A DNA stretch of 64,000 bases from Phoronis australis (taxonomy: Eukaryota; Animalia; Phoronida), in contig NMRA01000631.1 of the NCBI GenBank assembly GCA_002633005.1, positions 105,598 through 169,597 of the forward strand, given 5' to 3'. The position numbers and the translations under genes are program-made. Position 1 is the stretch's first letter; each line of letters opens with the position of its first letter. Below the pieces are notes generated by a model that was not told the origin of the DNA, made no database searches, and worked only from the letters and a program-made list of their open reading frames with translations. Below, piece by piece: positions 33,429-59,407 of the stretch.

Positions 33429-33749
33429 TGTTAGAGTATGATCTCATATCCCAGTGAGTGCATGTGTAGGAGTAGTTCAGAGAATTAACCATTATGTAAT
33501 ACACCCCCAACATGAGGAATTGTAGTAAACATGTTTGTTCAGTATATCCTGTTATGATTCATGTATGTCACTATATAAGTGTATGATCGCATGGATTGTA
33601 ACAGACTCAGTAGTATCAGCAGAAGAGTATGTAATAAAACTATTATCCTCCTTCAGACTAGTATTATCCTTGGACCGCGTTCTCGCACTGTGTCGCGCAT
33701 TCAACGTTCCTAACCGAACAGAATGCCTTTCGCTGCTAGCACATCAACA
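33429..33749 (+). repeat. copia 5' LTR (321 bp)
   Basis: tgttagagtatg...acatcaaca; near-identical to 39508-39827; contains tataag and aataaa. Confidence 0.95.
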
Positions 33750-33767
33750 GGTTATGGGCCCAGCACG
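33750..33767 (+). other. Primer-binding site complementary to the anticodon region of tRNA-iMet (half-tRNA primer)
   Basis: ggttatgggcccagcacg is the reverse complement of CGTGCTGGGCCCATAACC in eukaryotic initiator tRNA; same type as Drosophila copia. Confidence 0.9.
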
Positions 33768-36700
33768 GCCAGCAGTTCCAGCACTAGCGTGAGCAGAGGT
33801 TCAGGAAGACTGAGTCGGCTATGTTTTGATGGAGATGAAAGAAGGTATGAACTGTGGGAAATTAAGTTTCTCGGACATTTGAAATCGCTAGATCTGAAAG
33901 CGACAATTGAATCCGACGCAGAAACCGTCGATGATGCGAAGAATGAAGAAGCATTCTGCGAACTAGTTCAATACTTGGACGACAAAAGTTTGAACTTAAT
34001 AATTCGAGATGTTAGAAATGACGGCCGTTAGGCTCTCAAGATTTTACGAGAACATTATACGGGGTGCAGTAAGCCACGAATAATTGGGCTATACAGCGAA
34101 CTGACGGCACTAAAAATGGAAGCTAATGAGTCTGTGACAGACTATCTGATCAGGGCAGAACGTGCCGCAACTTACCTGCGAACAGCAGAAGAGGTTATAA
34201 GCGATAGCCTGTTGATTGCGATGGCCATGAAGGGATTACCAGACAAATTCGGACCCTTCATCGTTTATGTGTCTCAGAACACAGGTAAAATAACGTTTGG
34301 AGACTTCAAAGTGAAGTTAAAGTCTTTTGAAGAAAATGANCGGAAGAGGTTATAAGCGATAGCCTGTTGATCGCGATGGCCATGAAGGGATTACCAGACA
34401 AATTCGGACCCTTCATTGTTTATGTCTCAGAACACAGATAAAATAACGTTTGGAGACTTCAAAGTGAAGTTAAAGTCTTTTGAAGAAAATGAAAATGCAA
34501 GACAAACAGAAGACTCCGTAATGAGGTCGGCAACCTACCGACGGAAGAAACCAATGGAATGTTGGACGTGCGGTCGAAAAGGGCACAAGGCACAAGATTG
34601 CAGAACAAGATGGTGCAGACTGTGTAAAAACAGCTCCCACAACTTCGAAGATTGCCGAAGAAGGAAAGGAACAAGTAAAGCCCACAAAGCAGCTGAGGAA
34701 CAAGACCAGCAGGGAAGTAGATTTAATGATTTCAGTTTTAAGGTTAGCGATGATAGGTTTAAACATGATCAGATGTTAGTAAACAAACTGTTAGTTGATA
34801 CAGGGGCAACATCCCATATTGTTACAGACAGGTCTAAGTTTAAATGTTTTGATGAGAAATTTGATCCGTCTAGTCACTGNTTAGTTGATACTGGGGCAAC
34901 ATCCCATATTGTTACAGACAGGTCCAAGTTTAAATGTTTTGATGAGAAATTTGATCTAATCACTGCATAGACTTGGCAGATGGGACTAGGACAACTGGTA
35001 TAGCACAGGCACGGTGGTGATGTTGACATTAGGCTAATAGACAGTAAGGGCAATGTCATCTGTTCCACATTGACAAATGTTTTGTACATACCAAGCTATC
35101 CACAGGAAATATTCTCTGTCCAGGCTGCTGTTGCTAATGGAGCTTCAGTCATTTTTGAATCAGAAAATGCAAAATTAATTGCTCATGATGGGACAGAATT
35201 CGAAATTGAAAAACGTGGAAAATTGTTATTTGGATTATTTGGATGTATTGGCTTCTGACACAGCAAATAAAGTCAGAGAGCATGACCAGTCTGTGTACAT
35301 GGCACAAAATTTTTGGCCATTGTAACAATGATGACGTATTGAGATTAGAAACCGTTGTTAGAGGTATGAAAATTACTGACAAGGCTAAGGTGGATTGTGA
35401 CGTTTGTACTCTGGGGAAAATGACTAATACTAGGAATAGGAATCCAGATGCCCGCAGTACGAAAGCATTAGAATTCGCTCATTGTGATTTGGCAGGACCG
35501 ATTGATCCCATTTCAAAAGATGGATTTAGATATGCAATATCCTTCGTTGATGATTNGATGCCCGCAGTACGAAAGCATTAGAATTTGTTCATTGTGATTT
35601 GGCAGGACCGATTGATCCCATTTCAAAAGATGAATTTAGATACGTATGCAATATCCTTCGTTGATGATTTTAGTGGGGTGAATATGGTATATTTTATGAA
35701 ACAGAAGTCAGACACAGTCAAGGCCACAAAACGTTTTATAGCGGACTGTGCACCCTATGGAAAAGTGAAGCGTATGCGTACCGACAATGGTACAGAGTTT
35801 ACATCCAGCAAATTTCAGGAACTTATGCTGAGCCACAGTATTAATCAGCCCCCTATTCCCCACACCAAAATGGGACAGTTGAACGAGGGTGGCGCACTTT
35901 ATTTGAAATGGCCAGATGCTTGTTGATAAATGCCAATTTGCCAAAAAGATTTTGGACTTATGCGGTTATGTCTGCTGCATATATTAGAAACAGATGTTTC
36001 AACTCAAATATTAAGAAAACCCCAGTGGAAGGGTTCACTGGACGACAACCCGATGTAAGCAACATGCATATTTTCGGAAGCATGTGTTATGCATATGATA
36101 ATGATCCCAAGAGGAACAAACTTGATGCAAAAAGCATAAGGGGTATTGTTGTTGGATATGACAGGGGGAGTCTCGCATATCTTGTTTATGATCCTGAGAG
36201 TGACAGAATTCTCAGAAGTCGGTTAGTAAAATTCCCTGATAATTTTGATTTGTCAGATGCCACACCAAATGAGTGTGATGAAGAACTGGTGCGATTGCCA
36301 AGAATGAATCCTGAAACTAAGGAAGAGAAAAATGGCGAAATTAAGACTGAATCCAGTCAAATAAAGAATGAGTCAAATGAGAATAATGACGCAACTGAGG
36401 GTGGTCAAAGAAGATATCCTCTCAGAGAAAGAAGACCCCCAAGTTATTTGAATGATTATGTGGCCGGAAATATTGATTATTGCTACAAAATTATGGGAAT
36501 TCCTCAAACGTATGAGGAGGCAATGAATTAAATGAATCAGAATTTTGGGAAAAGGCCATGAATGACGAAATGGACTCATTAAGGGAGAATGATACATTTA
36601 CATTAACCAAACTGCCTGAAGGACGCAATGATATTGTTGGCGGCAGATGGGTGTTTGCCATTAAGGAAGATAGCAAGGGAAATATAACTCACAAGGCGAG

Positions 36701-38051
36701 ATTTGTGGCAAAAGGCTATAGCCAAATTCCTGGAAGATATTATTATGATACATATGCTCCAACTGTGAAATTGAGTACAATTAGGGCAGTAATTCAATTA
36801 GCTGTTGAGAACGACTTACATGTAAACCAAATGGAAGTGAAAACGGCCTATCTAAATGCACCGATTGATTGCGAAATTTATATGACACAACCACAAGGTT
36901 TCAAGGAATTATAAGAAACTGGTGAAAAACTTGTTTGGAAACTTAACAAGTCACTGTATGGCTTGAAGCAAAGTGGTCGGAATTGGAATTACGTTCTCAG
37001 AAATTATCTTTTTGAGATGGGGTATAAACAGGACGAAGTTGACCCGTGTATGTTTACTAGTTGTGATCCAAAGGGATCCATGACATTGCTGTTGATTTGG
37101 GTCGATGATATAATAATCGTAGCAAGTGATGAGGTGTTACTCAGAAATACCAAGCAGATGTTATGTAATAAGTTTAAGATGAAAGATCTTGGTAAAATTG
37201 CCTATTTTCTTGGAATAGAGTTTGAGCATAAACAAGGCGAAATTGATATGAGTCAGCGGAAGTATTTGAGAAAACTGTTAGATAAATTTGGGATGACAGA
37301 TTGTAAACCCAGATTGACTCCTTGTGAACAAGATGTTACTCAAGCGTGCAATGACGTAGCAGTAGTAGACAAAACAGTGTATCGTGAAATAGTGGGAAGT
37401 TTGATTTATGCAATGACGTGTACAAGACCAGACTTATGTTTTGTTGTGACAAAATTATCTCAGAAACTGTCAGAGCCAATTGAGGCTGACATGATTAAAT
37501 TGAAACAGGTGTTACGCTATTTGAAAGGAACTATGGATTATTCACTCAGATTTAGAAAGTCTGAAAATGGTTTGAGAATTATTGGTTTTAGTGATGCAGA
37601 CTGGGGATCATCTGATGACAGACACAGTATTACTGGATATTGTTTATGTGAAAACAGTGCAGCGATTTCATGGAAATCAATGAAGCAATCTACAATTGCT
37701 TTATCTACTTGTGAAGCCGAATATATAGCAATGTCGAATGCTATTCAAGAATTGTTATTTCTGAAGCAAATGTTAATGTGTATGGAAAAACAAATTGATG
37801 TGTATTGTCCAATCTTGTACGGTGACAATCAAGGCGCAATTGCACTGTGTAAGAATAGTGTAACTCATCAGAGATCAAAACATATTGATATCAGGTATCA
37901 TTTTATCAGAGAACAGGTTGAGAAAGGTTCTGTAAACCTATTGTATGTTCCATCATCAGAAAACATTGCAGATATGTTTACGAAGTTGTTGTCAAAAGTG
38001 AAACTACGGAGGTTTGTTAGCTATGTTTTTGGAAATGATGTTTGTAATTAA
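33754..38051 (+). pseudogene. copia gag-pol polyprotein with stops and frameshifts
   Basis: Gag CCHC (CWTCGRKGHKAQDC, CRLCKNSSHNFEDC), protease LVDTGATSHI, integrase WHKIFGH..CDVC, DLAGP, RTDNGTEF, RT KARFVAKGYSQ and IWVDD, RNase H FSDADW..STCEAEY..SKHIDIRYHFIRE..NIADMFTK. Confidence 0.92.
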
Positions 38052-38133
38052 AGACTGCGTAATAAATGTGACGAATATGAGATCAAGGGGGAGTGTTAGA
38101 GTATGATCTCATATCCCAGTGAGTGCATGTGTN

Positions 38134-39463
38134 AAGATATCCTCTCAGAGAAAGAAGACCCCCAAGTTATTTGAATGATTATGTGGCCGGAAATATTGAT
38201 TACTGCTACAAAATTATGGGAATTCCTCAAACGTATGAGGAGGCAATGAATTCAAATGAATCAGAATTCTGGGAAAAGGCCAGGAATGACGAAGTGGACT
38301 CATTAAGGGAGAATGATACATTTACATTGACCAAACTGCCTGAGGGACGCAATGATATTGTTGGCGGCAGATGGGTGTTTGCGATTAAGGAAGATAGCAA
38401 GGGAAATATAACTCACAAGGCGAGATTTGTGGCAAAAGGCTACAGCCAAATTCCTGGAAGAGATTACTATGATACATATGCTCCAACTGTGAAATTGAGT
38501 ATTTTTTTGGGCCAGTAATTCAATTAGCTGTTGAGAACGACTTACATGTACACCAAATGGATGGGAAAACGGCCTATTTAAATGCACCGATTGATTGCGA
38601 AATTTATATGACACAACCACAAGGTTTCGAGGAATTATCAGAAACTGGTGAAAAACTTGTTTGGAAACTTAACAAGTCACTGTATGGCTTGAAGCAAAGT
38701 GGCCGGAATTGGAATTACGTTCTCAGAAATTATCTTATTGAGATGGGGTATAAACAGAATGAAGTTGACTGGTGTATGTTTACAAGTTGTGATCCAAAGG
38801 GATCCATGACATTGCTGTTGATTTGGGTCGATGATATAATAATCGTAGCAAGTGATGAGGTTTTACTCAGAAATACCAAGCAGATGTTATGTAATAAGTT
38901 TAAGATGAAAGATCTTGGTAAAATTGCCTATTTTCTTGGAATAGAGTTTGAGCACAAACAAGGTATGAGTCAGAGGAAGTATTTGAGAAAACTGTTAGAT
39001 AAATTTGGAATGACAGATTGTGAACCCAGATTGACTCCTTGTGAACAAGATGTTACTCAAGCGTGCAATGACGTAGCAGTAGTAGACAAAACAATGTATC
39101 GTGAAATAGTGGGAAGTTTAATTTATGCAATGACGTGTACAAGACCAGACTTATGTTTTGTTGTGACAAAATTATCTCAGAAACTGTCAGAGCCAATTGA
39201 GGCTGACATGATTAAATTGAAACAGGTGTTACGCTATTTGAAAGCAACTATGGATTATTCACTCAGATTTAGAAAGTCTGAAAATGGTTTGAGAATTATT
39301 GGTTTTAGTGATGCAGATTGGGGATCATCTGATGACGGACACAGTATTACTGGATATTGTTTTGGCTGATGTGAAAACATTGCAGATATGTTTACAAAGT
39401 TGTTGTCAAAAGTGAAACTATAGAAGTTTGTTAACTATGTTTTTGGAAATGATGTTTGTAATT
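38134..39463 (+). pseudogene. Second copy of the copia RT-RNase H region with an internal RNase H deletion
   Basis: Repeats 36410-38051 after the N at 38133; about 310 bp of RNase H are missing at ~39372, joined at the microhomology gaaaaca. Confidence 0.88.
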
Positions 39464-39507
39464 AAAGATTGCATAATAAATGTGACGAATATGAGATCAA
39501 GAGGGAG

Positions 39508-39827
39508 TGTTAGAGTATGATCTCATATCCCAGTGAGTGCATGTGTAGGAGTAGTTCAGAGAATTAACCATTATGTAATACATCCCCAACATGAGGAATT
39601 GTAGTAAACATGTTTGTTCAGTTTCTCCTGTTATGATTCATGTATGTCCTATATAAGTGTATGATCGCATGGATTGTAACAGACTCAGTAGTATCAGCAG
39701 AAGAGTATGTAATAAAACTATTATCCTCCTTCAGACTAGTATTATCCTTGGACTGCGTTCTCGCACTGTGTCGCGCCTTCAACGTTCCTAACCGAACAGA
39801 ATGCCTTTCGCTGCTAGCACATCAACA
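39508..39827 (+). repeat. copia 3' LTR (320 bp)
   Basis: Preceded by PPT aagagggag; TG..CA termini. Confidence 0.95.
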
Positions 39828-46727: not shown

Positions 46728-47003
46728 TATAGTAACGCGGCCTATAATTCATGAGATACAGCCAACTTACCTAACTTCTTGTCCGGACTCTACATCTGTG
46801 TCCCACTTTTAAGAGTGCCTCTCCTTACACTATCAAGAGCGTCTATCTTTCACCACACCCTGGCATAGACTCCCCGATTTTTCCCCTCGTGCCCAGAGTC
46901 ACGTGACCTATCACTGGCTCACTATGTCAACACCACACACACAGAGGCGAACAAAGACAACACCACATGACGCCACACAACGAGAGAATACACGTTCACG
47001 ACA
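46728..47003 (-). repeat. gypsy 3' LTR (276 bp)
   Basis: Minus strand tgtcgtg...gttactata, directly after the polypurine tract ggaagggggga(g). Confidence 0.93.
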
Positions 47004-47553
47004 CTCCCCCCTTCCTAAAAAGAATAGGCATAACTTTAATTCCTAACATCCCCAAACAAATGTTAGAAGACCAACAGTCGTACCAAATGTAACAAAAAGA
47101 AACATCAAGTAGTTTCGCAGAAAGAAAGAAAAAATAAAATAACTTACTCAAAAAAAATTACATTTGATGTGACGTTAGTAGCACTCCACAACTAAGCCTT
47201 CCCTCCCAAAAGAAAATTATCCTAAACATAGTGGCCTGAAGAACAATGACTAAAAACAAAACCTATTGACTTTAAAAAGAAAAGGGCACTCAATGAAAAG
47301 GAAAAACCAAAAAAAAAACACCCCAAAAACCCGTCCCCTTACTCTCAAGTAAGAACTTAATACACAAAAACAACAAAAAACAAAAAAGAAACAACTAATA
47401 TAATCCCCAAGAAGTCCGAACAGACGAGACGGAAATGCCCCTAAATATAAAATAAAGAGGCATAAACAAAAAAAAATATATATATATATATAAAAAACAG
47501 AAAGGGAAAAAAAACTATTTCTATAATATCTCATATACCACCCTCAAGCCCCT

Positions 47554-48386
47554 CTATAATCGGTATAAGCTTCGTCCATTACGAACGCTCTCGTCCAGAA
47601 CCACCTCAGTGGACACCCCCCTTAGCTTTGCCACAACTTCCGCGACCTCCCCTATAAACTGAGGGTAATTAGGATTAGTATTTACCGGAAGGTGAGGGGA
47701 ATCGGTTTCCAACAACAACCGCTGCAGAGGAACCGTGTCTAACGCTGCAACCTGCAAGCGGTTGTACCTGCATATCAAACCTGAAAAGCCAAAATAACGA
47801 AGGAAATTCTTCACAGAAGTCGCGCACGACATTTGTATTTCCAACAGAGGTGTGTAGGTGCATACGAATACTCTGCGGAGCATGACGCCGCAAAATCTCA
47901 CGGAGTGTAGCAAAACCCCAATCATAATGAACATCATGCTTGACACCTTCCTACGATATTCAGTTTCTTTCTTTTCCAGCTGACAAAAATGAATTATCAA
48001 ATCTTCTAATGCACGCGCCTGCCATACCTCGTCCCTACCTTGTTCCAATCCGACTTCCCCAAGCCCTGCTACCTTTGGTTCTGACAGCAACCCCAACATA
48101 ACTTCCCGCGCACGGAAATCCAATTTGGAGAGCTGTTTAGGATGGATGCCTACGACTGCCTTCCATCCTGCAGGAAGCTGCTTCAAATAGGCACCCAGGT
48201 CAATGCGGATGTCATGTGCATCGCAAAAAACAACGATCCCCCACAGAGGGTCACTGGCACCGTCGGTTGCCTGCTTATATCCGCCGCCAGGAGTTCTGGT
48301 ACTGACAGCCATCTGTCCACTGTCCGTACGCCCGTTTTCTCACGATGGGCCACAGATAACCTATTAATGTGGAAATGCGAGTCCAA
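47554..48386 (-). pseudogene. TatD-family metal-dependent nuclease domain carried inside the LTR element (frameshifted)
   Basis: Motifs in TatD order across three frames: LDSHFH (48386), VGIHP, GLGEVGL, MHLHTSVG, YFGFSG, VPLQRLLLETDSP, VAEVVAKLRGVS..V..N..LY. Confidence 0.88.
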
Positions 48387-49336
48387 AGCCTGAGGATTCG
48401 CTTTTACTTTGCGTGGAGTTGAAATCGCAGTAGGTGCCCCCCCGGCCTAGACGAACACTCTGCAACTACCTGAGCAAAAGTGGTGAACGATGTAGTCACA
48501 GGCCCCGTTGTTAACGGTGCATTCACCGGTCCGTTCGTAGGAGTCGACGCAACGTCTACCCCAGTAGATGTCTGATGCAGTGGCGCCGCTAAAGGAATAA
48601 ATGGTACTTCCTGCATTTCGGTAGATTCGGACTCCTCATCACACCAACGGATCCACTCAGAGCGAAGGGCCTCCGACACGCGTGCCATCATCCCCAAAAT
48701 AATATACCAGAGGAACACACATGCTGGATTCTCTAAGCGACCATCCGGTGCGATAAAACGAGATGGTATCGGCCATCCCATCACACGGCATGTTAAGAAC
48801 ATCGACACCTCGTCCACCAACAACACAGATGGTATACATGGCAAACTGCGCACGATCAACCCCCCATATCCATCAAATCGCTGTATGACACCAATTCCCT
48901 ACCCTCTATGTAAGAAAACAGGCGAAGAATCGCCCAAGCGCGACGACGCTGTAACCCCGGAAACGCAAGTATGTGAATAGATGATATATTGAATATTTTC
49001 GGAAGATGTAATAGGGCGTGTGCCCGAAACCCGGCCTCCGACCCCGTAAAAGGACATAACGGGCACGAAAAGGAGGGAGATGGAAGACCCGCAGAACTTA
49101 CCGAACTCTGACTAGATTCTCGCAGGACTAACTGGCGTTTTAATCGATGACTGTGTTTCGTCTACAGCCGCAACTGTACAATCTGTTCACCTTGGCATTC
49201 AGTTGACTTACCCACTACTGACTCTGCATCCATAGGAACTACCTCAACAGCCCCGGACTCACCTTCGTTGAAGGTCGCTATTGGAAGATCTCTGGGTTTG
49301 TTCGCAAACGAACATCTGAACACGCGAACTGGACAT
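48387..49336 (-). pseudogene. N-terminal part of the extra ORF: C2H2-like finger plus unknown domain and linker leading into TatD
   Basis: CPLCPFTGSEAGFRAHALLHLP (~49065-49000); the reading continues through single-base shifts at the G runs 48860-48865 and 48436-48443 into the DSHFH frame; one in-frame TAG at 49162-49164. Confidence 0.6.
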
Positions 49337-49380
49337 CTACAACAAAAACATGGTTATGTAATTATTACATCATAATGATG

Positions 49381-52300
49381 TTATGGCTTACACCAATAAG
49401 TGTCAATTTCCCGTGCATCAGTAGCGGTAATATCAACACATTCCCCATGAAGCCAGTCATCACAAGATTCGCACTGAATCATGAGCCCCCCTGTGATCGG
49501 GCTTGCGACAAATGCGAAAAAGTTCCGGATCCCTATTCCCGGTATTGGTGTTGATGACATTTCCAGCAGAAATGACTCTTTTTAACCAATCAGGCAATTC
49601 AGTATATTGCGTTGTACATAATTTTATTCTGTCATGATGAACTACCGAAACTGAATTCTTAACTCTTACCCGGTACAACGCTGGAGTTAAGACTTCCGTA
49701 ATAATATCCAGCCCCTTCCACGGAGGAGATAATTTTTTACATTTTCCTTTCACAGTTGCCGAGTCAAAGATATACACGAGATCACCCAGATGAAACACGC
49801 GCTTAAACACTGAAAGATCATAGTCACGTTTCATCAAAGATTGACTAGTTTGAAGAAATTGATGCGCCGTTTCATGAGCCTTGCTTATTGCCCCTTGAAG
49901 TCTCCCGACATAATCACCAGATGGTTGATTATTAACTGACGTGACCACCGGAAATATAAGATCTATCGGCTGATTTACTTCTCGTCCCAACATCATCATA
50001 TTTGGAGAGAAACCAGTATGTCGGTTGACTGATGAGCGAATCGCCCCAGCAATTTGCGGAATAAACATATCCCAGTCGTCTTGATAATCACTCACGTAAC
50101 ATCTCACCGCGTCCATGAGCGTGCGATTAAATCGCTCTACCTGTCCATTCGCAGACGGGCGGTATGGAGTTGTTCTTGACTTATTTATGTGCAGGAGGTC
50201 GCACAGTGACTTAAAAAGTTTGCTGTCGAAATTCCTTCCCTGATCTGAAAAAATATGAAACGGATATCCGAATCGTGTGAAGAACTCGTTGACCGCCGCA
50301 TGGGCCGTGACCTCGGCCGTTTGGGAAGGTAACGGAATGCACTCGACCCATTTGGTGAACTGATCAACGATCGTTAAAACATGTTCATTACCGCGGTTTG
50401 TCACAGGTAATGGCCCCAGGAAATCCACATGAACCCGTTCCATCGGCGCACCAGCATGATAACGAATCATCGGAAATTGACCATGTCTACTGCCCTGCTT
50501 GTTCTGATTGCAGGCCCCACAGGAACCTATGAATTGTTTGACATCTTTCGTCAAACCATACCAGAAATATTTTAATCTTATTTTTGACTTAGTCCGGAAA
50601 ATACCCTGATGGGCCGCCGATGGTATGATATGGCACATTTTCAGGACCTCCGATTTTAATTCTGTAGGAATTACCATTAAACCTCGGTCATCCTCCGGAC
50701 ACTTCCAAAACAACACATCACCTTGAATATAAAACCGATCTTTGTTTATCCAGTAAAACTTGTTGACGGACTAGACAGGAACAATTCGTGCTCTGTAGGA
50801 ACTACCTGTTCCTTTAACCAGTTGAAAACAAAAGTCATATCCACATCAGCTTTTTGTTTAGTTGGCAACTCAGCTTCATTAAGATACCCGCAGGAGTTTG
50901 AGCTGGTCGAGTTGTTGTTGACAACGCAAAATTCCGATTCAACAAAAACATTATCACTCGAATTTGAAAGATTTGGATTAACCACAGCCAATCCAAATTC
51001 CTGCTCTGCTAGATCATCAGGTATATACCGAGACAAATCCGACTCTTGACTTCCAACAGAAGCCGTAATTACCTGTCTCCCTGTACCAATACATTTATGT
51101 ACTTTTGTGACCACCACGCTACCAAGAGATGTTGAATCATCAACTTCTTGTGAAAACTATACCAGTCATTATGAGCTTTTTGACATTTTCCACAACCCCC
51201 GCGGGGAAGCTGTTCTGGAGAAACTCCCAGTTTATAGTTGCTGCAAATATCTACAGAAATACGGGAAAGTGCATCTGTATTAATATGCTTTATACCCGGC
51301 CGATACTCTATCTTCATACCCGGAAATTGTTGCAGCTGCAGAATCCAACGCGCTATCTGACCACTTGGAGATTTAAAATTCAACTACCATGTTAAGCTGT
51401 TATGATCCGTCCGCACGCGGAAATTCCGACCCAGCAAATAATGTCGATATTGAGTAAAACGAACCACAGCCATTAATTCCTTCCTAGTCGTGCAATATCG
51501 CTTTTGCTCATCCACCAACGCAAAACTCGAATATGAGATAACCTTTTCCTCGCCATTCTGAACTTGCGACAAACAAGCACCAATTGCAAGATCAGAAGCG
51601 TCACAGTCGAGGATAAATTCATCATAATTATTGGGTAACGACAGTACGGGTGGCGATGTTAAAGCCACCTTAAGCTCTTCAAAAGCTAATTGCTGCTTCT
51701 CCACCCACGCAAAGGGAGAGGACCCAGTGACTTCGTAAAGTGGCATCGCAATGCGAGCAAAATCCTTGATAAAAAGACGATGATAATTTTCGAAAAAAAG
51801 GAAAACTCTGACACTGTTTTTTACTTCTTGGAACAGGCCAGGTTTTTACCTTGTCAATATTATCTTGACCCATTTCTGACCCCTCAGGGCCCACCCATCG
51901 TCCTAAGAAATCAACGCGTTTTTGAAACAATAAACATTTCTTGGGTTTCAATCTCATTTGATATTTCCTAAAACGATCAAAAACCTCCCGCAGGTTGTTT
52001 AAATTCACGTCAAAACTAGAACCCAAGACCAAAATGTCGTCGAGAAAAGCAAGAACTGTGTGCCAGTTTAGCCCCGCAGAACTAAACTCATTGCCCGTGA
52101 AAGGGTTGAGGGAGCCCCACAGAGCCCAAAAGGCATTGACTTGAACTCGAAAAGACCATATTTAGTTATGAAAGCCATTTTCTTACGGTCTTCTTCGCGT
52201 ATTTTGATTTGCCAGTACGCCGAATTAGCATCTAATTTGCTAAACCACACATTACCTGCAAGTAAATCAATGCACTTGTCTATCAATGGTAAAGGCCAGG

Positions 52301-53893
52301 AGTCCTTTTTGGTTACCCGATTTAGCTTCCTGTAGTCGATGCAATACCGGACTGAACCGTCAATTTTCTTTCTGATTAAAACCGGAGCCGCAGCCCACTC
52401 ACTCATAGACGGAGTAATCACGCCAGCCTTGAGCATTTTGTCTAGATGACCTCCTCCGAAATGAAACAACTCGGAGTACGCCGCATAGCCTTTTTTATTG
52501 GCTGAGCATCTCCCGTATCAATTACATGCTCTACGGCTGTAAAATTGCCCAAATCCATATCATCGGCTGCAAATACATCGGTATAATCAGAAAGTAATCG
52601 ATGTAATTTTGACGACTCGTCATCCGAAAGTGAAACTTTAGATTTGTCAAAAAGGCCCTGAAGTTTGGATGGTAAGCTAATCTGATCCTTATTGACATCT
52701 GACTGATCAACAACTTTTCTAGCCGAAACATCATCTTCATCAAAGGGAGTAATGGAATTCAAATGAACCTCAGTCCATTCATCCACACTTTGTACTGAAC
52801 CCAGTGATGACCCAGCCACCAGCCTAACTTGATGCTCCGAAGTGTTGAAAATCGTCAAAGCTGGCTCATCCTCAAAATCATACAAAGCGCGAGGTACTGA
52901 TAATCGCGGATCCAGATTCATCAAATCGGCCTCAACCAACACTGTTGACTGAAATTTTGGGTTTTTTACACATTTAACCCGTTTCACAGTATTTGGAGGT
53001 ATACTAACAGACCTAGCCAGTACTACAGTACGTAATAGCTTCGCAGGGAAACCATACTTCATTTCTGAAGTTTTGTTATCCAACGTGATGCAATCTTTTT
53101 TCATATTAATAACTGCATTTAGCCGTTTCATAACATCCAGACCTAATAAACAATCATCGTTAATATTAGCCACAACTAATGAAACATCACAGGTCTGATG
53201 CTGAAACGTGAGAGTTACTGGTTGTGTTCGAAAACCTAGCATAGCCATATCTTCTCCAGCCGTATGTACATTAATGTTATGTGAATAAACAACGTTGTCT
53301 AACAAATTGTACAACCGGTGTGAGATTATGGTGCTGTCAGCTTCGCAATCAATAATGGCATCAACAACAGTGCCATTAATTCTAATCGGTATATAATACA
53401 TATTACCCGTTGCACTCTTCTTTACTCCAACAGTCTCGAGGGAATCGAAGAAACTATCAGCATCGACTGACATCTTAACGCTTCCACCTGTTGATTCCAC
53501 CGGAACAGAGCCGGATGGAGCCAGCCCTCCCGACACAGATGGAGAGTTACTTTGTGAATTCATGTGTAATGAATCTATCCCAGTCTCATAACTGTTCGTC
53601 ACCTCCTCAACAATAACCGGAACCGTTTCCCCACACATCTTGTCTGAAGATACACTCTCCGTTACGTTAGAATTTGTAGGACTACTTAACTCTGAAACAG
53701 ATTTATGACAATCGGCAGAAGTTTTTCTCTCAAAGGAACAATCCGTTTCAGATGAATTGGAATCCCGACTAAGCTTTTTAACAAATTTCTTGATGCACCC
53801 CACGAGGCCGACTAATTTCGCAACATCAGGAGGGTCTTGGCACTTACTACGGACTGGGGTCAGACCCGATCGCCCAGTCCTTAGGCGTTTAAA
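49381..53893 (-). pseudogene. gypsy pol (protease, RT, RNase H, integrase, C-terminal PHD finger), frameshifted
   Basis: PR AIIDCEADSTIIS..LLGLD; RT YCIDYRKLN, MPFGLCGAP, AFLDDILV; RH LDCDASDLAIGACLSQ, RTDH; IN H..H..CGAC, VDFLGP, SDQGRNF, NGQVERFN; PHD at 49381-49525. Confidence 0.93.
53851..53893 (-). other. Programmed -1 ribosomal frameshift signal (gag-pol)
   Basis: T TTA AAC heptamer (53893-53887) in the gag frame, 6-nt spacer, then stem GGACTGGG..CCCAGTCC. The -1 frame is open into the protease ORF (FKRLRTG..LVGCIKK). Confidence 0.85.
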
Positions 53894-55271
53894 TCATCCT
53901 CTTTGCTATCCACACTAGCCCTACGTGCCGACGTCGATGGACAATTACTCTGATAATGCCCCAGTTGATTACACTTAAAACACCTCGGTGTATATGGACA
54001 TTTAGGTGAAGAACCTGGTGAATTTCGCTGACGAATGTCAGACCTCGGAGAATTCGGCGATAACCGCTGTTCCCTCGACTCCTGCGGTTGTCTCGGCGAC
54101 TGAGTTTGTAGTATTGAAAATAGTTTACTCACCGAAATTGCTATTCATTTCAGTCTTCATGCGGTCTATTTTCTTATGAATTTGAGAATTGTCTGATTTC
54201 AGGGAAACAATATCCGATTGCATTTCAAGACTAGATGATTCAAGGAACGCGAATTTCCCCTCAAGGGCGTCCAACCGCGACTCAATAGTATCCCGTGGGG
54301 TAAATTTAAGACTAGGCTTACGATTAACCTGTCTCACGTCGACATTCTCGAATACATCGTCGGCATAAGATTCGCGACAAAATGTCACTGACCTGGGCGA
54401 TGCATGCATTAGGTTTTTAGTGGTCGAAAACCAACGAGCCGATGTCAACGCGTCAACAACAGTCGCTGGTTTATTATTAATTGTGAATTGGCCCACATCT
54501 TTATCGCGCATTCCCAGACAAAACCTCAGTACTGACTGTGATTTCTCCGAAGGTCTGGGGTCCGGAAAAGCCTTGAGGAACAAACTAGTAAGGCGATCTG
54601 CCCACTGTTCAAGAGACTCATCCCTCTCTTGAAATGCTGAATGGAAACGAAGCTGATGTACCTCAATACTCTGAACCTCGGATCCAAATCTATTAGACAT
54701 TATCTCGATGATGTCATCAAACTCTGCGCCCGGATATTCTTTTATATAATTGGAAAACCACCGAGCTGCATCCCCCTCAAGGCACAACCCCAACTCAGTG
54801 CGACACTTATGTGTCGGCCAAAAATAATCACGTGCCAAACTTTGGAGCTTCCATTGAAAATCCTCCCATGTTCCCCTTTTTCCCGAAAAAACTAGCTTAC
54901 TGGGAGCATGTGATCTGATATCATATTTACACTCCAAACTTGCATTTGTGCTTCCCGGGAATTTTGCGGCCATCTTTGCCGAAGAGGGAGTGTGACCTGC
55001 ACTCTTTGTTTTTGCAGGCATGTTTCTCGAATTCCTCACATACCCCGATAATTTTGTGAAATTCGTACTCTGGACTCGCGCTGAAATCAATAGTATTACA
55101 GACCGCCTTAGTGACTTTCCACCCTGAATTAATATAGTTAACATTTTCCGGTAATATTTGAGTGGATGACCGGAACTTCAAAATATCTTTAGCAATTTCC
55201 TCGGAAACCCCTGGAATTTCTAACAACTCTCCCATGGGACAGAAATTAATAGACACTTTCCCGGAAGCCAT
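53881..55271 (-). pseudogene. gypsy gag with N-terminal helix-hairpin-helix domain, capsid and CCHC knuckle (two frameshifts)
   Basis: MASGKVSINFCPMGELLEIPGVSEEIAKDILKFR; FSGKRGTWEDF..LEGDAARWF..QERDESLEQWADRL; CFKCNQLGHYQSNC. Confidence 0.85.
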
Positions 55272-55518
55272 AATTATCAACTAATATCAAACCTGCAAGT
55301 TTAATATTTCCTAGAACCAATATCAAAGAGGAACTGAGAACCGCGCACGGAATCAAATGGACATGCAGTATTTACTCACTACAAGATTACAACAAATAAC
55401 CAGTAATGACAGTAATATATAGGCTAGCTACACGAGAAAACGCACGTGTACAAATTACCCTCCCACTCCCGTAAGGGTACTGGCGCGAAAAACACACGGT
55501 TTATAAGTTGGCACTCTT

Positions 55519-55538
55519 GAATCCTGCCGACTACGCCA
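55519..55538 (-). other. Primer-binding site, tRNA-Ser (AGA-type)
   Basis: tggcgtagtcggcaggattc, a 20-nt complement of the tRNA-Ser 3' end GAATCCTGCCGACTACG-CCA, 2 nt after the LTR. Confidence 0.92.
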
Positions 55539-55540
55539 AT

Positions 55541-55757
55541 TATAGTAACGTGGCCTATAATTCATGAGATACAGCCAACTTACCTAACTTCTTGTCCGGA
55601 CTCGACATCTGTGTCCCACTTTTAAGAGCGCCTCTCCTTACACTATCAAGAGCGTCTATCTTTCACCACACTCTATCATAGACTCCCCGATTTTTCCCCT
55701 CGTGCCCAGAGTCACGTGACCTATCACTGGCTCACGATGTCAACACCACACACGACA
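55541..55757 (-). repeat. gypsy 5' LTR (217 bp; 59 bp shorter than the 3' LTR)
   Basis: Aligns to 46728-47003 apart from a deletion near the TG end. Confidence 0.92.
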
Positions 55758-56202: not shown

Positions 56203-59200
56203 TGTGATGTATGAATGATTTAGTTTACGTCTAGTCACGTGATGGTTTCACCATCAGTTTGTAGTTGTACGTGCACTGCTTGTATTACCACGATCACGAA
56301 TAGACGTATTTCAGTATCACTCGAATAATTGGTGTTCCTTCCACTCTGGCTACCCAACGATAAACGTAACATTGGCGACGAGAAATGGCTTCGAGGACGA
56401 TTCAGTTCGAGGAGTACAACAAACGGGAAGATATGGACAGCTATTTGGAACGTTTGGAACAATTTTTAGTTACGGCCGATTTATCGGACAAAGCAGTCAA
56501 GAAACGGGCGGTTTTGCTGAGCAGCATGGGGGCAGACTGCTACCAAGTTGTGAAAGACTTAGCATTTCCCGCCAGTCCTGCGACGAAATCATATGATGAC
56601 ATATGTACCTTGCTTAAAAATCATTTTAAGCCAACGAGACTGAAAACGGCGGAGAGATATAGGTTCCATTCCATAGTCCAAAAAGAGGGACAATCAGTCA
56701 TGGAATTTGTACGGGAGCTTCGAAAAATGGCTGGAACTTGCGAATTTACGGCAGACGCACTGAATGACAATCTAAGAGACAGGTTCATTTGTGGAATACG
56801 ATCTGACAACATCAAAAAGAGACTGCTTGCCAAAGAATTTACATTTGACGAGGCGATCAAAGAAGCGGTTGCGCAGGAAACAGCGGCAAAGGACATGAAG
56901 GACATTCATCCGGGAGGCAATAGCGCGGAGAATGCTGCAACGGGTGCAGTGAATCAAGTTCAAGGAAGGAAATCGTTGTATAACGCGAACCCGAGAGCGA
57001 GAAGTACCCCTCGCATGCCGAGAAACGAAACACAGTCACGCGGAACGCAGAGAAATGGTCAAGGAACTCAGCGGAAACAGTGTTGGCGCTGTGGGCTCAA
57101 CAACCACACACCGGACAACTGTAGACACAAAAACAGTAAGTGTTTTAAATGTAATAACATTGGCCATTTGAAATCGGAATGTCAGAAAGGGGCACAAAAT
57201 CGGGCACATTTCGTTGAAGATGATGACATGACCCTTGATTTATTATTTGCCACTGATGAAACGTCCTCACCCGTACCGCCATCAATCAAGGTTCCTATTA
57301 AGATTGAGGGAATTCTATTCAATATGGAATTTGACCCTGGCGCAGGATCATCGGTCATAAGTTTCGCTGACTGAGAAACAATTCAAATATATTCCCTTGA
57401 AACCTAGACAGCAGAATATGCACGCATATGCCGGAGCGCAATTAGATGTTGCGGGACAAATCACCGTAGATGTTGAATATGAAGGCCAAAATGTGGCATT
57501 GCCATTAACGATCGTACGAGCGGATCGCCACGCCCCTCATTTGTTGGGTCGAGTGTGGCTGAGTCATTTATTTGGTGCCGCGCAGAGATTGCAACGATGG
57601 GCAGTGACCTTGTCAGCTTTCAATTACGACATACGATACATCACGTCTAAACAAAATGCTATCGCTGACGCTTTATCACGGTTGCCACTGCCTACCACAA
57701 GGGGTGAAGAAGTCAACTGCATCGAAACCAAACAATTGGATGGACTTCCTGTCAGCAGCAAGGCCATTAGTCATGCTACGAGGAACGATCCTGTTCTGTC
57801 ACGAGTGATACATTTTGTACAGTACGGGTGGCCTAGCGAAATTGACGACGTGCGGTTTACACCATTTCTCAGAAGAAAACATGAGCTCACGACCGAGCAA
57901 GGGTGCATCATATGGGGAATGCGTGTGGTTATTCCCGAGAAATACCGCAAAGATATACTTGACGAATTACACAATGCACATGTAGGTATTGTGCGCATGA
58001 AAGAACTTGCTCGCAGTTACGTATGGTGGCTTCAAGTTGACCAGGATATTGAACAGTTGGTGCGAACGTGCGGTGCGTGCCAACATGTGCGAAATTTACC
58101 GCCAGCGACACCACTAATGCCCTGGGTATGGCCAAGTAAGCCTTGGCACCGGGTTCACGCGGACTTCGCGGAAAAGGACGGTCAACACTTTCTGATAGTG
58201 ATTGACGCGCACTCAAAGTGGCCGGAAATATTCCATATGACCAGCACGACGTCAAATGCGACCATTGCGGTTTTGCGAGAGTTATTTGGTAGATATGGAG
58301 TACCAGTGCAATTTGTTAGTGATAACGGTCCGCAATTTATAAGCCAAGAGTTCAAAAATTTCTTGAAAATGAATGCGGTTAAGCAAGTGCTAGTTGCACC
58401 GTACCACGCAGCGAGTAACGGGGCAGCAGAACGAATGGTACAATCGTTCAAACGTGCGCTGAATACGAGCAAGTCAACCGGAAAGTCGCACAACGGATTG
58501 CGAGTTTTCTCTTGTCGTACCGGTCGACAGCACACGCCACTACCGGACAGTCTCCTGCATTTTTATTTCTGGGTCGCGAACTCAGAACGCGGTTATCTGC
58601 AATACACCCCAGCGTAGAGGAAAAAGTGCTGGACAAGCAGGAGAGTCAAAAGCGTTATTATGACACGAAATGCCACCAACGGGACTTTATGGTCGGTGAA
58701 GAAGTGTTTATCAAAGATTTCCAAGTAAAGGAAAAATGGTGGCCGGCTACAGTGATGGAGAAAACCGCACCGAAGTCCTATGTTGTTGCATTAGAAAACG
58801 GTCAAGTGTGGAAACTACATGTAGACCAGATGCGCACACGACATCTGTCATCGGACATGTCCAAATCTTGCGATCAACACGATGACACACTTGGAGTACC
58901 ACCGATACTTTACCCAGTTGTCAATAGAGACAGCACCGGAAACTGCTGTTAGTAAACCGGAGTTAGCCGAAGCAGAATCGCCTGCATCGCGTTCGGACAT
59001 CTCAGACTCGGTGGAAGCTAAAACGCCAGACGTACAATTACCTGAGACTATGCAATTACCGAGACGTTCAAAGCGAACGGTGAAACAACCAGAGAGACTG
59101 GATTTGTAATAGCTGTGGCAAACATTTGTTTAAAAGACTCTCATGTAGTGTTGTATTTATGCTAGTTGCTAACGATATGTAGTTTCAGCTCAGGAGGAAA

Positions 59201-59407
59201 GAGTGTGATGTATGAATGATTTAGTTTACGCCATGTACTATTTTTAGAGATCACGTGTTATGTTATGTTGTCACGTGATGGTTTCACCATCAGTTTGTAG
59301 TTGTACGTGCACTGCTTGTATTACCACGATCACGAATAGACGTATTTCGGTATCACTCGAATAATTGGTGTTCCTTCCACTCTGGCTACCCAACGATAAA
59401 CGTAACA
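56203..59407 (+). mobile_element. Ty3/gypsy (Mag/K02A2.6-like) element lacking RT; non-autonomous
   Basis: LTRs 56203-56371 and 59204-59407 (TG..CA); PBS tggcgacgag (tRNA-Ser GCT type) 56373-56382; PPT aggaggaaagag; flanks ACATA / ATATA. Confidence 0.93.
56385..59109 (+). pseudogene. gag-protease-(RT/RH deleted)-integrase
   Basis: Gag SYLERLEQF..LRDRFICGI with two knuckles (CWRCG..H..C, CFKCNNIGHLKSEC); protease MEFDPGA..LLGRVWL joined directly to AQRLQRWA (RNase H end); IN ELHNAHVG..CGAC, PWHRVHADFA, SDNGPQF, SNGAAERMV. Confidence 0.9.

What the first reader, a model, noticed from the sequence alone, without database searches (positions are those of the whole stretch)
47554..48386. A TatD nuclease gene carried inside a Ty3/gypsy LTR retrotransposon, at the env position
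Seen: between the integrase and the PPT/3' LTR, on the element's sense strand and without introns, is a domain with TatD motifs in order (DSHFH, GIHP, GEVGL, HLH, FSG, LLLETDSP, terminal RG.S..V..N helix). Known: TatD proteins are TIM-barrel metal-dependent 3'-5' exonucleases/AP endonucleases and are not a standard LTR retrotransposon domain. Inference: this is a gypsy lineage that captured a nuclease as cargo, possibly for cDNA end processing, removal of damaged or R-loop intermediates, or counter-defence. I know of no formal description of this architecture, but cannot rule one out.
Basis: partly seen in the sequence, partly recalled or inferred. Interest (0 to 1): 0.92.

Follow-up and report, generated by a model that had tools for sequence, protein, structure and literature searches.

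The report
Jumping-gene clade carries a TatD nuclease
This broken jumping gene belongs to an old, widespread group in marine invertebrates that carries a third gene for a TatD-type nuclease, likely made from its own spliced message and predicted to help the element by digesting RNA stuck to DNA.

Summary
Confirmed and extended. The window holds a decayed Ty3/gypsy element (minus strand, 46728-55757) whose TatD domain (Pfam E 2e-19) lies between integrase and the 3' LTR. TatD ends a longer third gene (from about 49336) that also has an unmatched zinc-finger/helical domain; gag starts with a helix-hairpin-helix and integrase ends in a PHD finger. The layout is clade-wide: 19 of 21 related loci with enough upstream DNA have PHD-tipped integrase upstream, two are intact gag-pol-ORF3 elements, integrase and TatD trees share 6 of 7 splits, dN/dS is 0.18-0.44, and 111 of 126 relatives keep all six metal ligands. 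Named relatives come from oysters, scallop, pearl oyster and acorn worms, annotated as host genes. One contig and conserved splice sites point to an env-like spliced message. This copy's TatD is broken in three places and lacks one recognisable ligand. Function, substrate and donor are untested; an R-loop/hybrid-clearing accessory nuclease is my best guess. Ten literature searches found no description; Repbase was not searchable. The scan noted this architecture before on other DNA (sea urchin, flatworm). Closest precedent: rotifer elements with a DEDDy exonuclease ORF3.

The parts
55541..55757 (-). 5' LTR; about 59 bases shorter than the 3' LTR near its start
   Evidence: 7 differences in 210 aligned bases
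55578..55608 (-). ATG (55608) and consensus splice donor AG|GTAAGT (exon ends at 55584) inside the 5' LTR
   Evidence: a contig of run X5 joins this sequence to 49337; contigs of runs X1 and X2 leave the LTR at 55584
55521..55538 (-). Primer binding site (begins TGG; match to tRNA-Ser is recalled, not tested)
53881..55271 (-). gag, broken: N-terminal helix-hairpin-helix, capsid-like region, CCHC knuckle
   Evidence: HHH_3 E 1.1e-4 (below cut-off), Retrotrans_gag E 3.3e-4, zf-CCHC E 3.4e-6; intact relatives HHH_3 E 8e-14 and 2e-11
49519..53893 (-). pol, broken into several frames: protease, reverse transcriptase, RNase H, integrase (Ty3/gypsy order)
49380..49518 (-). PHD finger at the integrase C-terminus
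   Evidence: PF00628 E 1.4e-9; in one frame with pol in L001 and L003
49337..49352 (-). Splice acceptor (pyrimidine run then TAG) just behind the pol stop
49290..49322 (-). ORF3: short family motif CxDVRL
   Evidence: weak profile hit, iE 0.048; in frame with the LTR ATG across the proposed junction
48611..49107 (-). ORF3: C2H2-like zinc finger plus helical domain of no known family, broken
   Evidence: family profile iE 6.8e-5 and 1.7e-7
47554..48398 (-). ORF3: TatD domain, HxH (class II) type, in four frame pieces
47004..47016 (-). Polypurine tract
   Evidence: read from the sequence
46728..47003 (-). 3' LTR
   Evidence: contigs of X1 and X2 leave the element at 47003

Best explanation
This is a decayed copy of an old Ty3/gypsy clade whose third gene encodes a TatD domain, likely an active metal-dependent 3'-5' nuclease made from its own spliced message, which would work as an accessory protein that clears RNA from RNA:DNA hybrids (R-loops) on the element's own copies or at its insertion sites. 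Shown: the layout HhH-gag / pol ending in PHD / ORF3 (low-complexity linker, zinc-finger-helical domain, TatD), its spread, its joint descent with integrase, and conservation of the metal ligands. Inferred: splicing from a donor at the end of the 5' LTR to an acceptor behind the pol stop, as for retroviral env (one contig plus conserved sites); catalytic activity (from ligands); capture from a host TATDN2-like gene (motif likeness recalled, not tested). Guessed: the substrate and purpose; the PHD finger would steer integration to active promoters, where R-loops are common, and the nuclease would free hybrids there or on the element's own transcribed copies. My odds: clade-wide selected cargo 0.95; spliced message 0.8; active nuclease 0.85; hybrid/R-loop role about 0.4.
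For: Position: of 51 element-type loci, 25 show PHD and/or integrase upstream on the same strand; of the 21 with at least 2.7 kb upstream, 19 do. L001 and L003 hold open gag, pol and ORF3 frames, ORF3 beginning 16 and 20 bases after the pol stop. Joint descent: 6 of 7 splits shared between integrase and TatD trees of 10 loci, Mantel rho 0.61, p 0.001, at TatD identities of 28-67%; 6 of 8 with the window added. Selection: the five unsaturated pairs give dN/dS 0.18-0.44, the best-powered one 0.19; other close pairs have saturated synonymous sites at pN 0.16-0.31. Catalytic residues: 56 of 57 and 111 of 126 keep all six ligands; the model of L003 ORF3 matches E. coli YcfH (Foldseek E 4e-14). Splicing: X5 contig joint, read ends piling at 49334 in X6 (10 of 18) and X7 (5 of 10); acceptor score at least 11 in 12 of 25 loci against 12 of 114 background windows, p 4e-6; ATG within 15 bases of the acceptor in 17 of 25 against 308 of 1428, and in frame in 9 of 9 open ORF3s. 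Substrate lead: human TATDN2, also class II with a long disordered N-terminus, degrades the RNA of R-loops (PMC10711561) and protects fish germ cells (PMC12709183).
Against: No activity, localisation or substrate was tested. No host TATDN2 sequence was available, so the donor is not shown; the best solved relative is bacterial YcfH, and YcfH, TATDN1 and TATDN3 act on DNA (PMC10085689). The junction rests on one contig with 19 letters on the short side, from a run only guessed to be RNA; most raw reads near the acceptor (33 in X6, 18 in X7) leave the window's sequence at 49262, so they come from another, rearranged or diverged copy; depth over TatD itself was about 1 or less in three RNA runs read to 18-19%. 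A donor just before the primer site was seen in only 4 of 9 relatives' stretches. Loci were picked through TatD, so the share of this pol clade that lacks TatD is unknown; L042 and L048 have no pol upstream, and one X3 contig skips the whole PHD-TatD stretch. Several loci are near-duplicates from few data sets, so the p values overstate independence.
Confidence: 0.55

Rival explanations
1. The nuclease is a counter-defence protein: it destroys small guide RNAs, silencing-related nascent RNA, or stray cDNA that the host would sense.
For: Separate expression and a modular build with fast-changing linkers are typical of accessory proteins; TatD diverges faster than integrase (median identity 35% against 61%). 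The same idea was raised for the rotifer DEDDy ORF3 (PMC5408684, Discussion). TatDs of Plasmodium and trypanosomes degrade host DNA traps (PMC10085689, passage).
Against: No sign of positive selection in the pairs measured; no small-RNA data; TatD exonucleases are processive on single strands in general, with no known preference for guide RNAs.
Confidence: 0.22
2. The protein is packaged with the particle or joins the integration complex and trims cDNA ends or repairs abasic and damaged sites during reverse transcription and integration.
For: YcfH, TATDN1 and TATDN3 have AP-endonuclease and 3'-exonuclease activity on DNA (PMC10085689); the clade's gag has a DNA-binding-type HhH motif, hinting at unusual DNA handling.
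Against: ORF3 is not fused to pol in the intact elements nor in 25 of the longer relatives scanned with Pfam; a processive single-strand exonuclease inside the particle would endanger the cDNA; the element has its own RNase H.
Confidence: 0.17
3. ORF3 stands in for an envelope gene and helps the element move between cells.
For: It occupies the env position and is likely expressed the same way.
Against: None of 28 ORF3 proteins has a hydrophobic 19-residue stretch at the usual membrane threshold (maximum 1.72); the only Pfam families are TatD and occasional zinc fingers.
Confidence: 0.03
4. The TatD is a host gene, or a one-off insertion, that happens to lie inside this element.
For: Public annotations list the relatives as ordinary host or bacterial proteins; no target-site duplication flanks the window's copy.
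Against: Same position in 19 of 21 informative loci, congruent trees, 150 distinct clusters at 50% identity of which 89 of 90 long ones share the ORF3-specific domain.
Confidence: 0.03

Closest known systems
Juno and Vesta LTR retrotransposons of bdelloid rotifers with a DEDDy 3'-5' exonuclease ORF3 (PMC5408684; abstract, section 3.3 and Discussion read)
   Same: A gypsy-like element with an enzymatic 3'-5' exonuclease gene in the env position, catalytic residues intact, function unproven.
   Different: Different fold (TatD TIM barrel, not DnaQ-like). The rotifer ORFs are described as recent, family-specific and near neutral within the genome; this one is old, descends with integrase, shows purifying selection, spans at least molluscs and hemichordates, and carries extra folded domains.
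TatD class II (HxH) nucleases: E. coli YcfH and YjjV, human TATDN2 and TATDN3 (PMC10085689; PMC10711561)
   Same: HxH motif, the acidic and histidine ligands, TIM-barrel fold; like TATDN2, a long largely disordered N-terminal part before a C-terminal TatD domain.
   Different: Encoded by a mobile element, intronless in its coding body, fused to a zinc-finger-helical domain with no match in Pfam, PDB or BFVD; forms a group apart from the 37 bacterial TatDs sampled.
Chromoviruses (Ty3/gypsy with a chromodomain after integrase; recalled, and described in a passage of PMC13524379)
   Same: A chromatin-reader module at the integrase C-terminus.
Orchid Ty3/gypsy elements with an AlkB m6A demethylase ORF (PMC9289625; abstract read)
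   Same: A captured nucleic-acid enzyme kept as an additional ORF.
   Different: Recent and limited to one plant genus; a demethylase with shown activity, not a nuclease.

Membership tests
Ty3/gypsy LTR retrotransposon | Two direct LTRs with PBS and PPT | tested here: met
Ty3/gypsy LTR retrotransposon | pol order protease-RT-RNase H-integrase | tested here: met
   intact relative
Ty3/gypsy LTR retrotransposon | Target-site duplication | tested here: not met
   No 4-5 base duplication at the flanks; the 5' LTR is partly deleted and both flanks are repeats, so decay or recombination may explain it
Named Gypsy clade (MolGy, Mag, CsRn1 and others) | Placement in an RT/RNase H tree with reference elements | not testable with these tools
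   No reference sequences on hand; the supplements of PMC6238403 that could be read did not hold the two RT motifs searched
TatD family, class II | PF01026 above the curated cut-off | tested here: met
   70.3 bits against 27; intact relatives 124-127 bits
TatD family, class II | N-terminal HxH motif | tested here: met
   DSHFH in the window; 57 of 57 relatives
TatD family, class II | All six metal ligands present in this copy | tested here: inconclusive
   Five are plain; the sixth falls at a break. Relatives: 56 of 57 and 111 of 126
TatD family, class II | TIM-barrel fold like YcfH | tested here: met
   Model of relative L003, Foldseek E 4e-14, TM 0.76 by target length
TatD family, class II | Metal-dependent 3'-5' exonuclease or AP-endonuclease activity | not testable with these tools
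   Needs an assay
TATDN2 orthologous clade | Nesting among animal TATDN2 in a tree with TATDN1, 2 and 3 | not tested
   No named host TATDN2 sequence came back; profile scores favour YcfH (E 5e-34) over TATDN1 and TATDN3 (about 1e-12)
Bacterial YcfH/TatD equivalogs | NCBIfam curated cut-offs | tested here: not met
   TIGR00010 64-128 bits against 206 for the window and 6 relatives; a bacterial control scored 304
env-carrying Ty3/gypsy (errantiviruses) | ORF3 is a membrane glycoprotein | tested here: not met
   0 of 28 ORF3s with a membrane-like stretch; no env family in Pfam scans
env-carrying Ty3/gypsy (errantiviruses) | ORF3 expressed from a spliced subgenomic RNA | tested here: inconclusive
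   One junction contig and conserved acceptor plus ATG; no raw read across the junction was listed
Chromoviruses | Chromodomain after integrase | tested here: not met
   PHD finger instead

The most novel reading that the evidence does not exclude
An undescribed, ancient Ty3/gypsy clade spanning protostomes and deuterostomes runs a three-part chromatin kit: an HhH-tipped gag, a PHD-tipped integrase, and an env-like spliced ORF3 that joins a new zinc-finger-helical fold to an active TATDN2-type nuclease, used to resolve R-loops at active promoters so that the element can be transcribed and inserted there; hundreds of 'TatD hydrolase' genes annotated in bivalve and acorn-worm genomes are in fact this cargo.
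Probability: 0.35. Interest if true: 0.88.

Novelty: new variant of a known kind. Interest (0 to 1): 0.72.

Why it matters
Long-kept extra enzymes in LTR retrotransposons are rare and each points to a host barrier the element must overcome. A nuclease kept with integrase across deep divergence, with its active site intact, makes a testable case that handling RNA:DNA hybrids, small RNAs or stray cDNA limits transposition in marine invertebrate germ lines. It also supplies a large natural series of class II TatD enzymes, a confidently folded domain with no structural match, and a correction for annotation: many 'TatD' genes in oysters, scallops, acorn worms and even symbiont genome bins are likely transposon cargo.

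Tried and rejected
No whole genome is held for this window, so copy number and an in-genome dN/dS could not be measured. Four scans of viral contigs found no relative, so the pol-first test (how many elements of this clade lack TatD) stayed open. No RNA holder was listed by the run search. The zinc-finger-helical domain found no match: best Z 3.6 among 48,161 chains, nothing at E 0.001 in PDB or BFVD; this does not prove a new fold. The ESM Atlas gave only generic TatD clusters for P0021 and did not answer for the zinc-finger domain. The 'ORF3upstreamDomain' column was faulty and was not used. The first Mantel test included the window's partly out-of-frame ORF and was redone without it. The careful TatD tree did not finish; the quick tree is cited. 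Four loci (L044, L045, L046, L050) were dropped from the counts as ordinary bacterial TatD (neighbours of L044 and L050; all four among bacterial rows). A bacterial origin of the relatives labelled Sedimenticola or Thiodiazotropha was rejected: the contigs are whole LTR elements, most likely host DNA binned with symbionts (inference). An attempt to name the Gypsy clade through supplements failed (one PDF and one slide file unreadable).

Full report
Observation. The window holds a 9.0 kb LTR retrotransposon on the minus strand. Its LTRs lie at 55757-55541 and 47003-46728 and differ at 7 of 210 aligned bases; a primer site follows the first and a polypurine tract precedes the second. Pfam finds protease, RT, RNase H and integrase in Ty3/gypsy order, and TatD_DNase at E 2.3e-19 in the frame 48339-47557. 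The copy is dead: pol is broken into several frames, the 5' LTR is shorter than the 3' one, and no target-site duplication is seen.

Integrase ends in a PHD finger (E 1.4e-9) and gag begins with a helix-hairpin-helix motif. TatD is the end of a longer third gene. A profile of 40 long relatives also matches a C2H2-like finger at 49107-48895 and a helical domain at 48811-48611, and weakly a short CxDVRL motif at 49322-49290. An N-terminal helical domain that many relatives have was not found in this copy.

The family. A search with the window's ORF gave one close relative among 19 hits; a profile search gave 85, about 60 of them of this type, with names from Saccostrea, Magallana/Crassostrea, Argopecten, Pinctada, Ptychodera and Glandiceps, all annotated as uncharacterised proteins or TatD/YcfH-like hydrolases. 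The best 150 representatives at 50% identity all score above 280 bits; 89 of the 90 with at least 200 residues before TatD carry the zinc-finger-helical domain. These proteins come without genomic context.

Context. Two scans fetched 55 loci; four are ordinary bacterial TatD and were dropped. Of the other 51, 25 show PHD and/or integrase upstream on the same strand, 1.2-2.7 kb from TatD; of the 21 with at least 2.7 kb upstream, 19 do, the misses being L042 and L048. L001 and L003 hold open HhH-gag, pol-PHD and ORF3 frames of 932 and 809 codons. The loci come from few data sets, were chosen through TatD, and include near-duplicates. In the window's own organism, contigs of four DNA runs cover the TatD stretch (X2 with one gap) at summed depths like those over pol, with other letters and length differences at several places in ORF3 and pol; one X3 contig skips 47243-49790. 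Depth there is no copy number.

Descent and selection. For the 10 loci with both domains in one open piece, integrase and TatD trees share 6 of 7 splits; Mantel rho 0.61, p 0.001; TatD identities run from 28 to 67%. With the window added, 6 of 8 splits are shared and its place is weakly supported. Among the 16 closest TatD pairs, five are unsaturated, with dN/dS 0.18-0.44 (only L007/L020, 0.19, has many changes); the other eleven have saturated synonymous sites. All six metal ligands are kept in 56 of 57 domains and in 111 of the 126 representatives that cover all six sites. A quick tree separates 58 element-type rows, window included, from 37 bacterial rows (SH-aLRT 99). No host TATDN2 was in the tree.

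Structure. A model of L003 ORF3 has three folded domains joined by disordered linkers; the last matches YcfH best (E 4e-14), as does the sequence profile (E 5e-34, against about 1e-12 for human TATDN1 and TATDN3). The zinc-finger-helical domain alone folds at pLDDT 94.9. None of 28 ORF3s has a membrane-like stretch, so this is not an envelope.

Expression. In run X5 (RNA by guess) one contig covers 49122-49337 and goes on with 19 letters; 15 of them were searched and match, with one difference, the LTR directly before a consensus donor at 55584. The element side ends at a pyrimidine run plus TAG, and an ATG at 55608 is in frame across this junction with the CxDVRL motif. Raw-read ends pile at 49334 in X6 (10 of 18) and X7 (5 of 10), though most of those reads leave the window's sequence at 49262 and TatD itself is barely covered. 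None of the 15 joints listed for the DNA runs is this one; 3 were not shown. In relatives, the best acceptor within about 110 bases of the PHD scores at least 11 in 12 of 25 against 12 of 114 background windows; an ATG follows within 15 bases in 17 of 25 against 308 of 1428, and it opens ORF3 in all 9 loci where ORF3 is open to TatD; a donor lies 14-27 bases before a primer-site-like TGG in 4 of 9 stretches. An earlier scan note on a sea-urchin element (e1-9984778, unchecked) had suggested such splicing and primed me to look.

Mechanism. Shown: architecture, spread, joint descent, conserved ligands. Inferred: an env-like spliced message and an active nuclease made apart from pol. Which substrate is a guess. 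Class II TatDs bind two metals, and YcfH, TATDN1 and TATDN3 have 3'-exonuclease and AP-endonuclease activity on DNA (PMC10085689). Human TATDN2 degrades the RNA strand of R-loops, needs the glutamates that correspond to E. coli TatD E91 and E201, and needs its long disordered N-terminus for binding (PMC10711561); fish tatdn2 protects primordial germ cells from R-loop damage (PMC12709183). The element proteins share that gross layout, and from memory their FCDP and HxHCFTG motifs look most like TATDN2. I therefore favour a nuclear accessory nuclease acting on RNA:DNA hybrids, paired with PHD-guided insertion at active chromatin (about 0.4), over counter-defence, cDNA or damage processing, and env replacement.

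Literature. Searches: TatD+retrotransposon+gypsy, 1 paper; TatD+retrotransposon, 21; TatD+LTR+ORF3, 0; TatD+transposon+gene family expansion+mollusc, 0; TatD+endogenous retrovirus+captured+nuclease, 0; for neighbours. By their listings none describes this. Seen: PMC5408684 abstract, section 3.3, Discussion; PMC10085689 abstract, one results section, Discussion, passages; PMC10711561 abstract and passages; PMC12709183 and PMC9289625 abstracts; PMC6338049, PMC13524379 and PMC8556966 passages (no 'TatD' or 'PHD' in their main texts); PMC6238403 passages and a search of four readable supplements (no 'TatD'). Subscription journals, Repbase Reports and preprint supplements were not searchable and may hold an earlier mention. 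The scan itself noted the same layout in a sea-urchin genome and a ligand-less, J-domain-fused version in a flatworm; these are unchecked notes, not support.

Verdict. A real, clade-wide, apparently undescribed cargo gene: a new variant of the known kind 'LTR retrotransposon with an enzymatic ORF3'. The window's copy is a decayed member; the case rests on its intact relatives. Interest 0.72.

Noticed in passing
window 49380-49518 (-); 21 of 21 loci with integrase upstream of TatD: Integrase ends in a PHD finger where chromoviruses have a chromodomain.
   Followed up: partly
window 54927-55280 (-); L001 and L003 gag starts: gag begins with a ComEA-like helix-hairpin-helix motif; its role is unexplained.
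   Followed up: partly
window 55584, runs X1 and X2: Contigs from runs taken as DNA leave the LTR exactly at the splice donor and go on into other sequence: possibly a reverse-transcribed spliced message, or an LTR-driven host transcript fixed as DNA.
   Followed up: no
window 49262-49337, runs X6 and X7: The best-expressed piece of the element is about 75 bases behind the acceptor, joined at 49262 to unrelated sequence (33 and 18 reads): another copy may drive a chimeric transcript.
   Followed up: no
L003:7901-8350; window 48611-49107: A 140-residue zinc-finger plus helical domain folds at pLDDT 95 and matches nothing in Pfam, PDB or BFVD; P0119 has it twice.
   Followed up: partly
L001-L007: Whole or partial retrotransposons sit in genome bins titled Sedimenticola and Thiodiazotropha, likely host DNA contaminating symbiont bins; L001, L003 and L012 look circularly assembled.
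   Followed up: partly
window 33429-39827 (+): A Copia-like element with LTR-like repeats and an internal duplication of about 1.7 kb in its RT region.
   Followed up: no
window 56234-59407 (+): A second, unrelated short gypsy-like element (gag and integrase, 138-base terminal repeats, no RT seen, no TatD); its integrase is 30% identical to this one.
   Followed up: partly
P0185: A database protein joins a long sulfatase-like part (label recalled) to this TatD: a likely gene-calling chimera of a host gene and element cargo.
   Followed up: no
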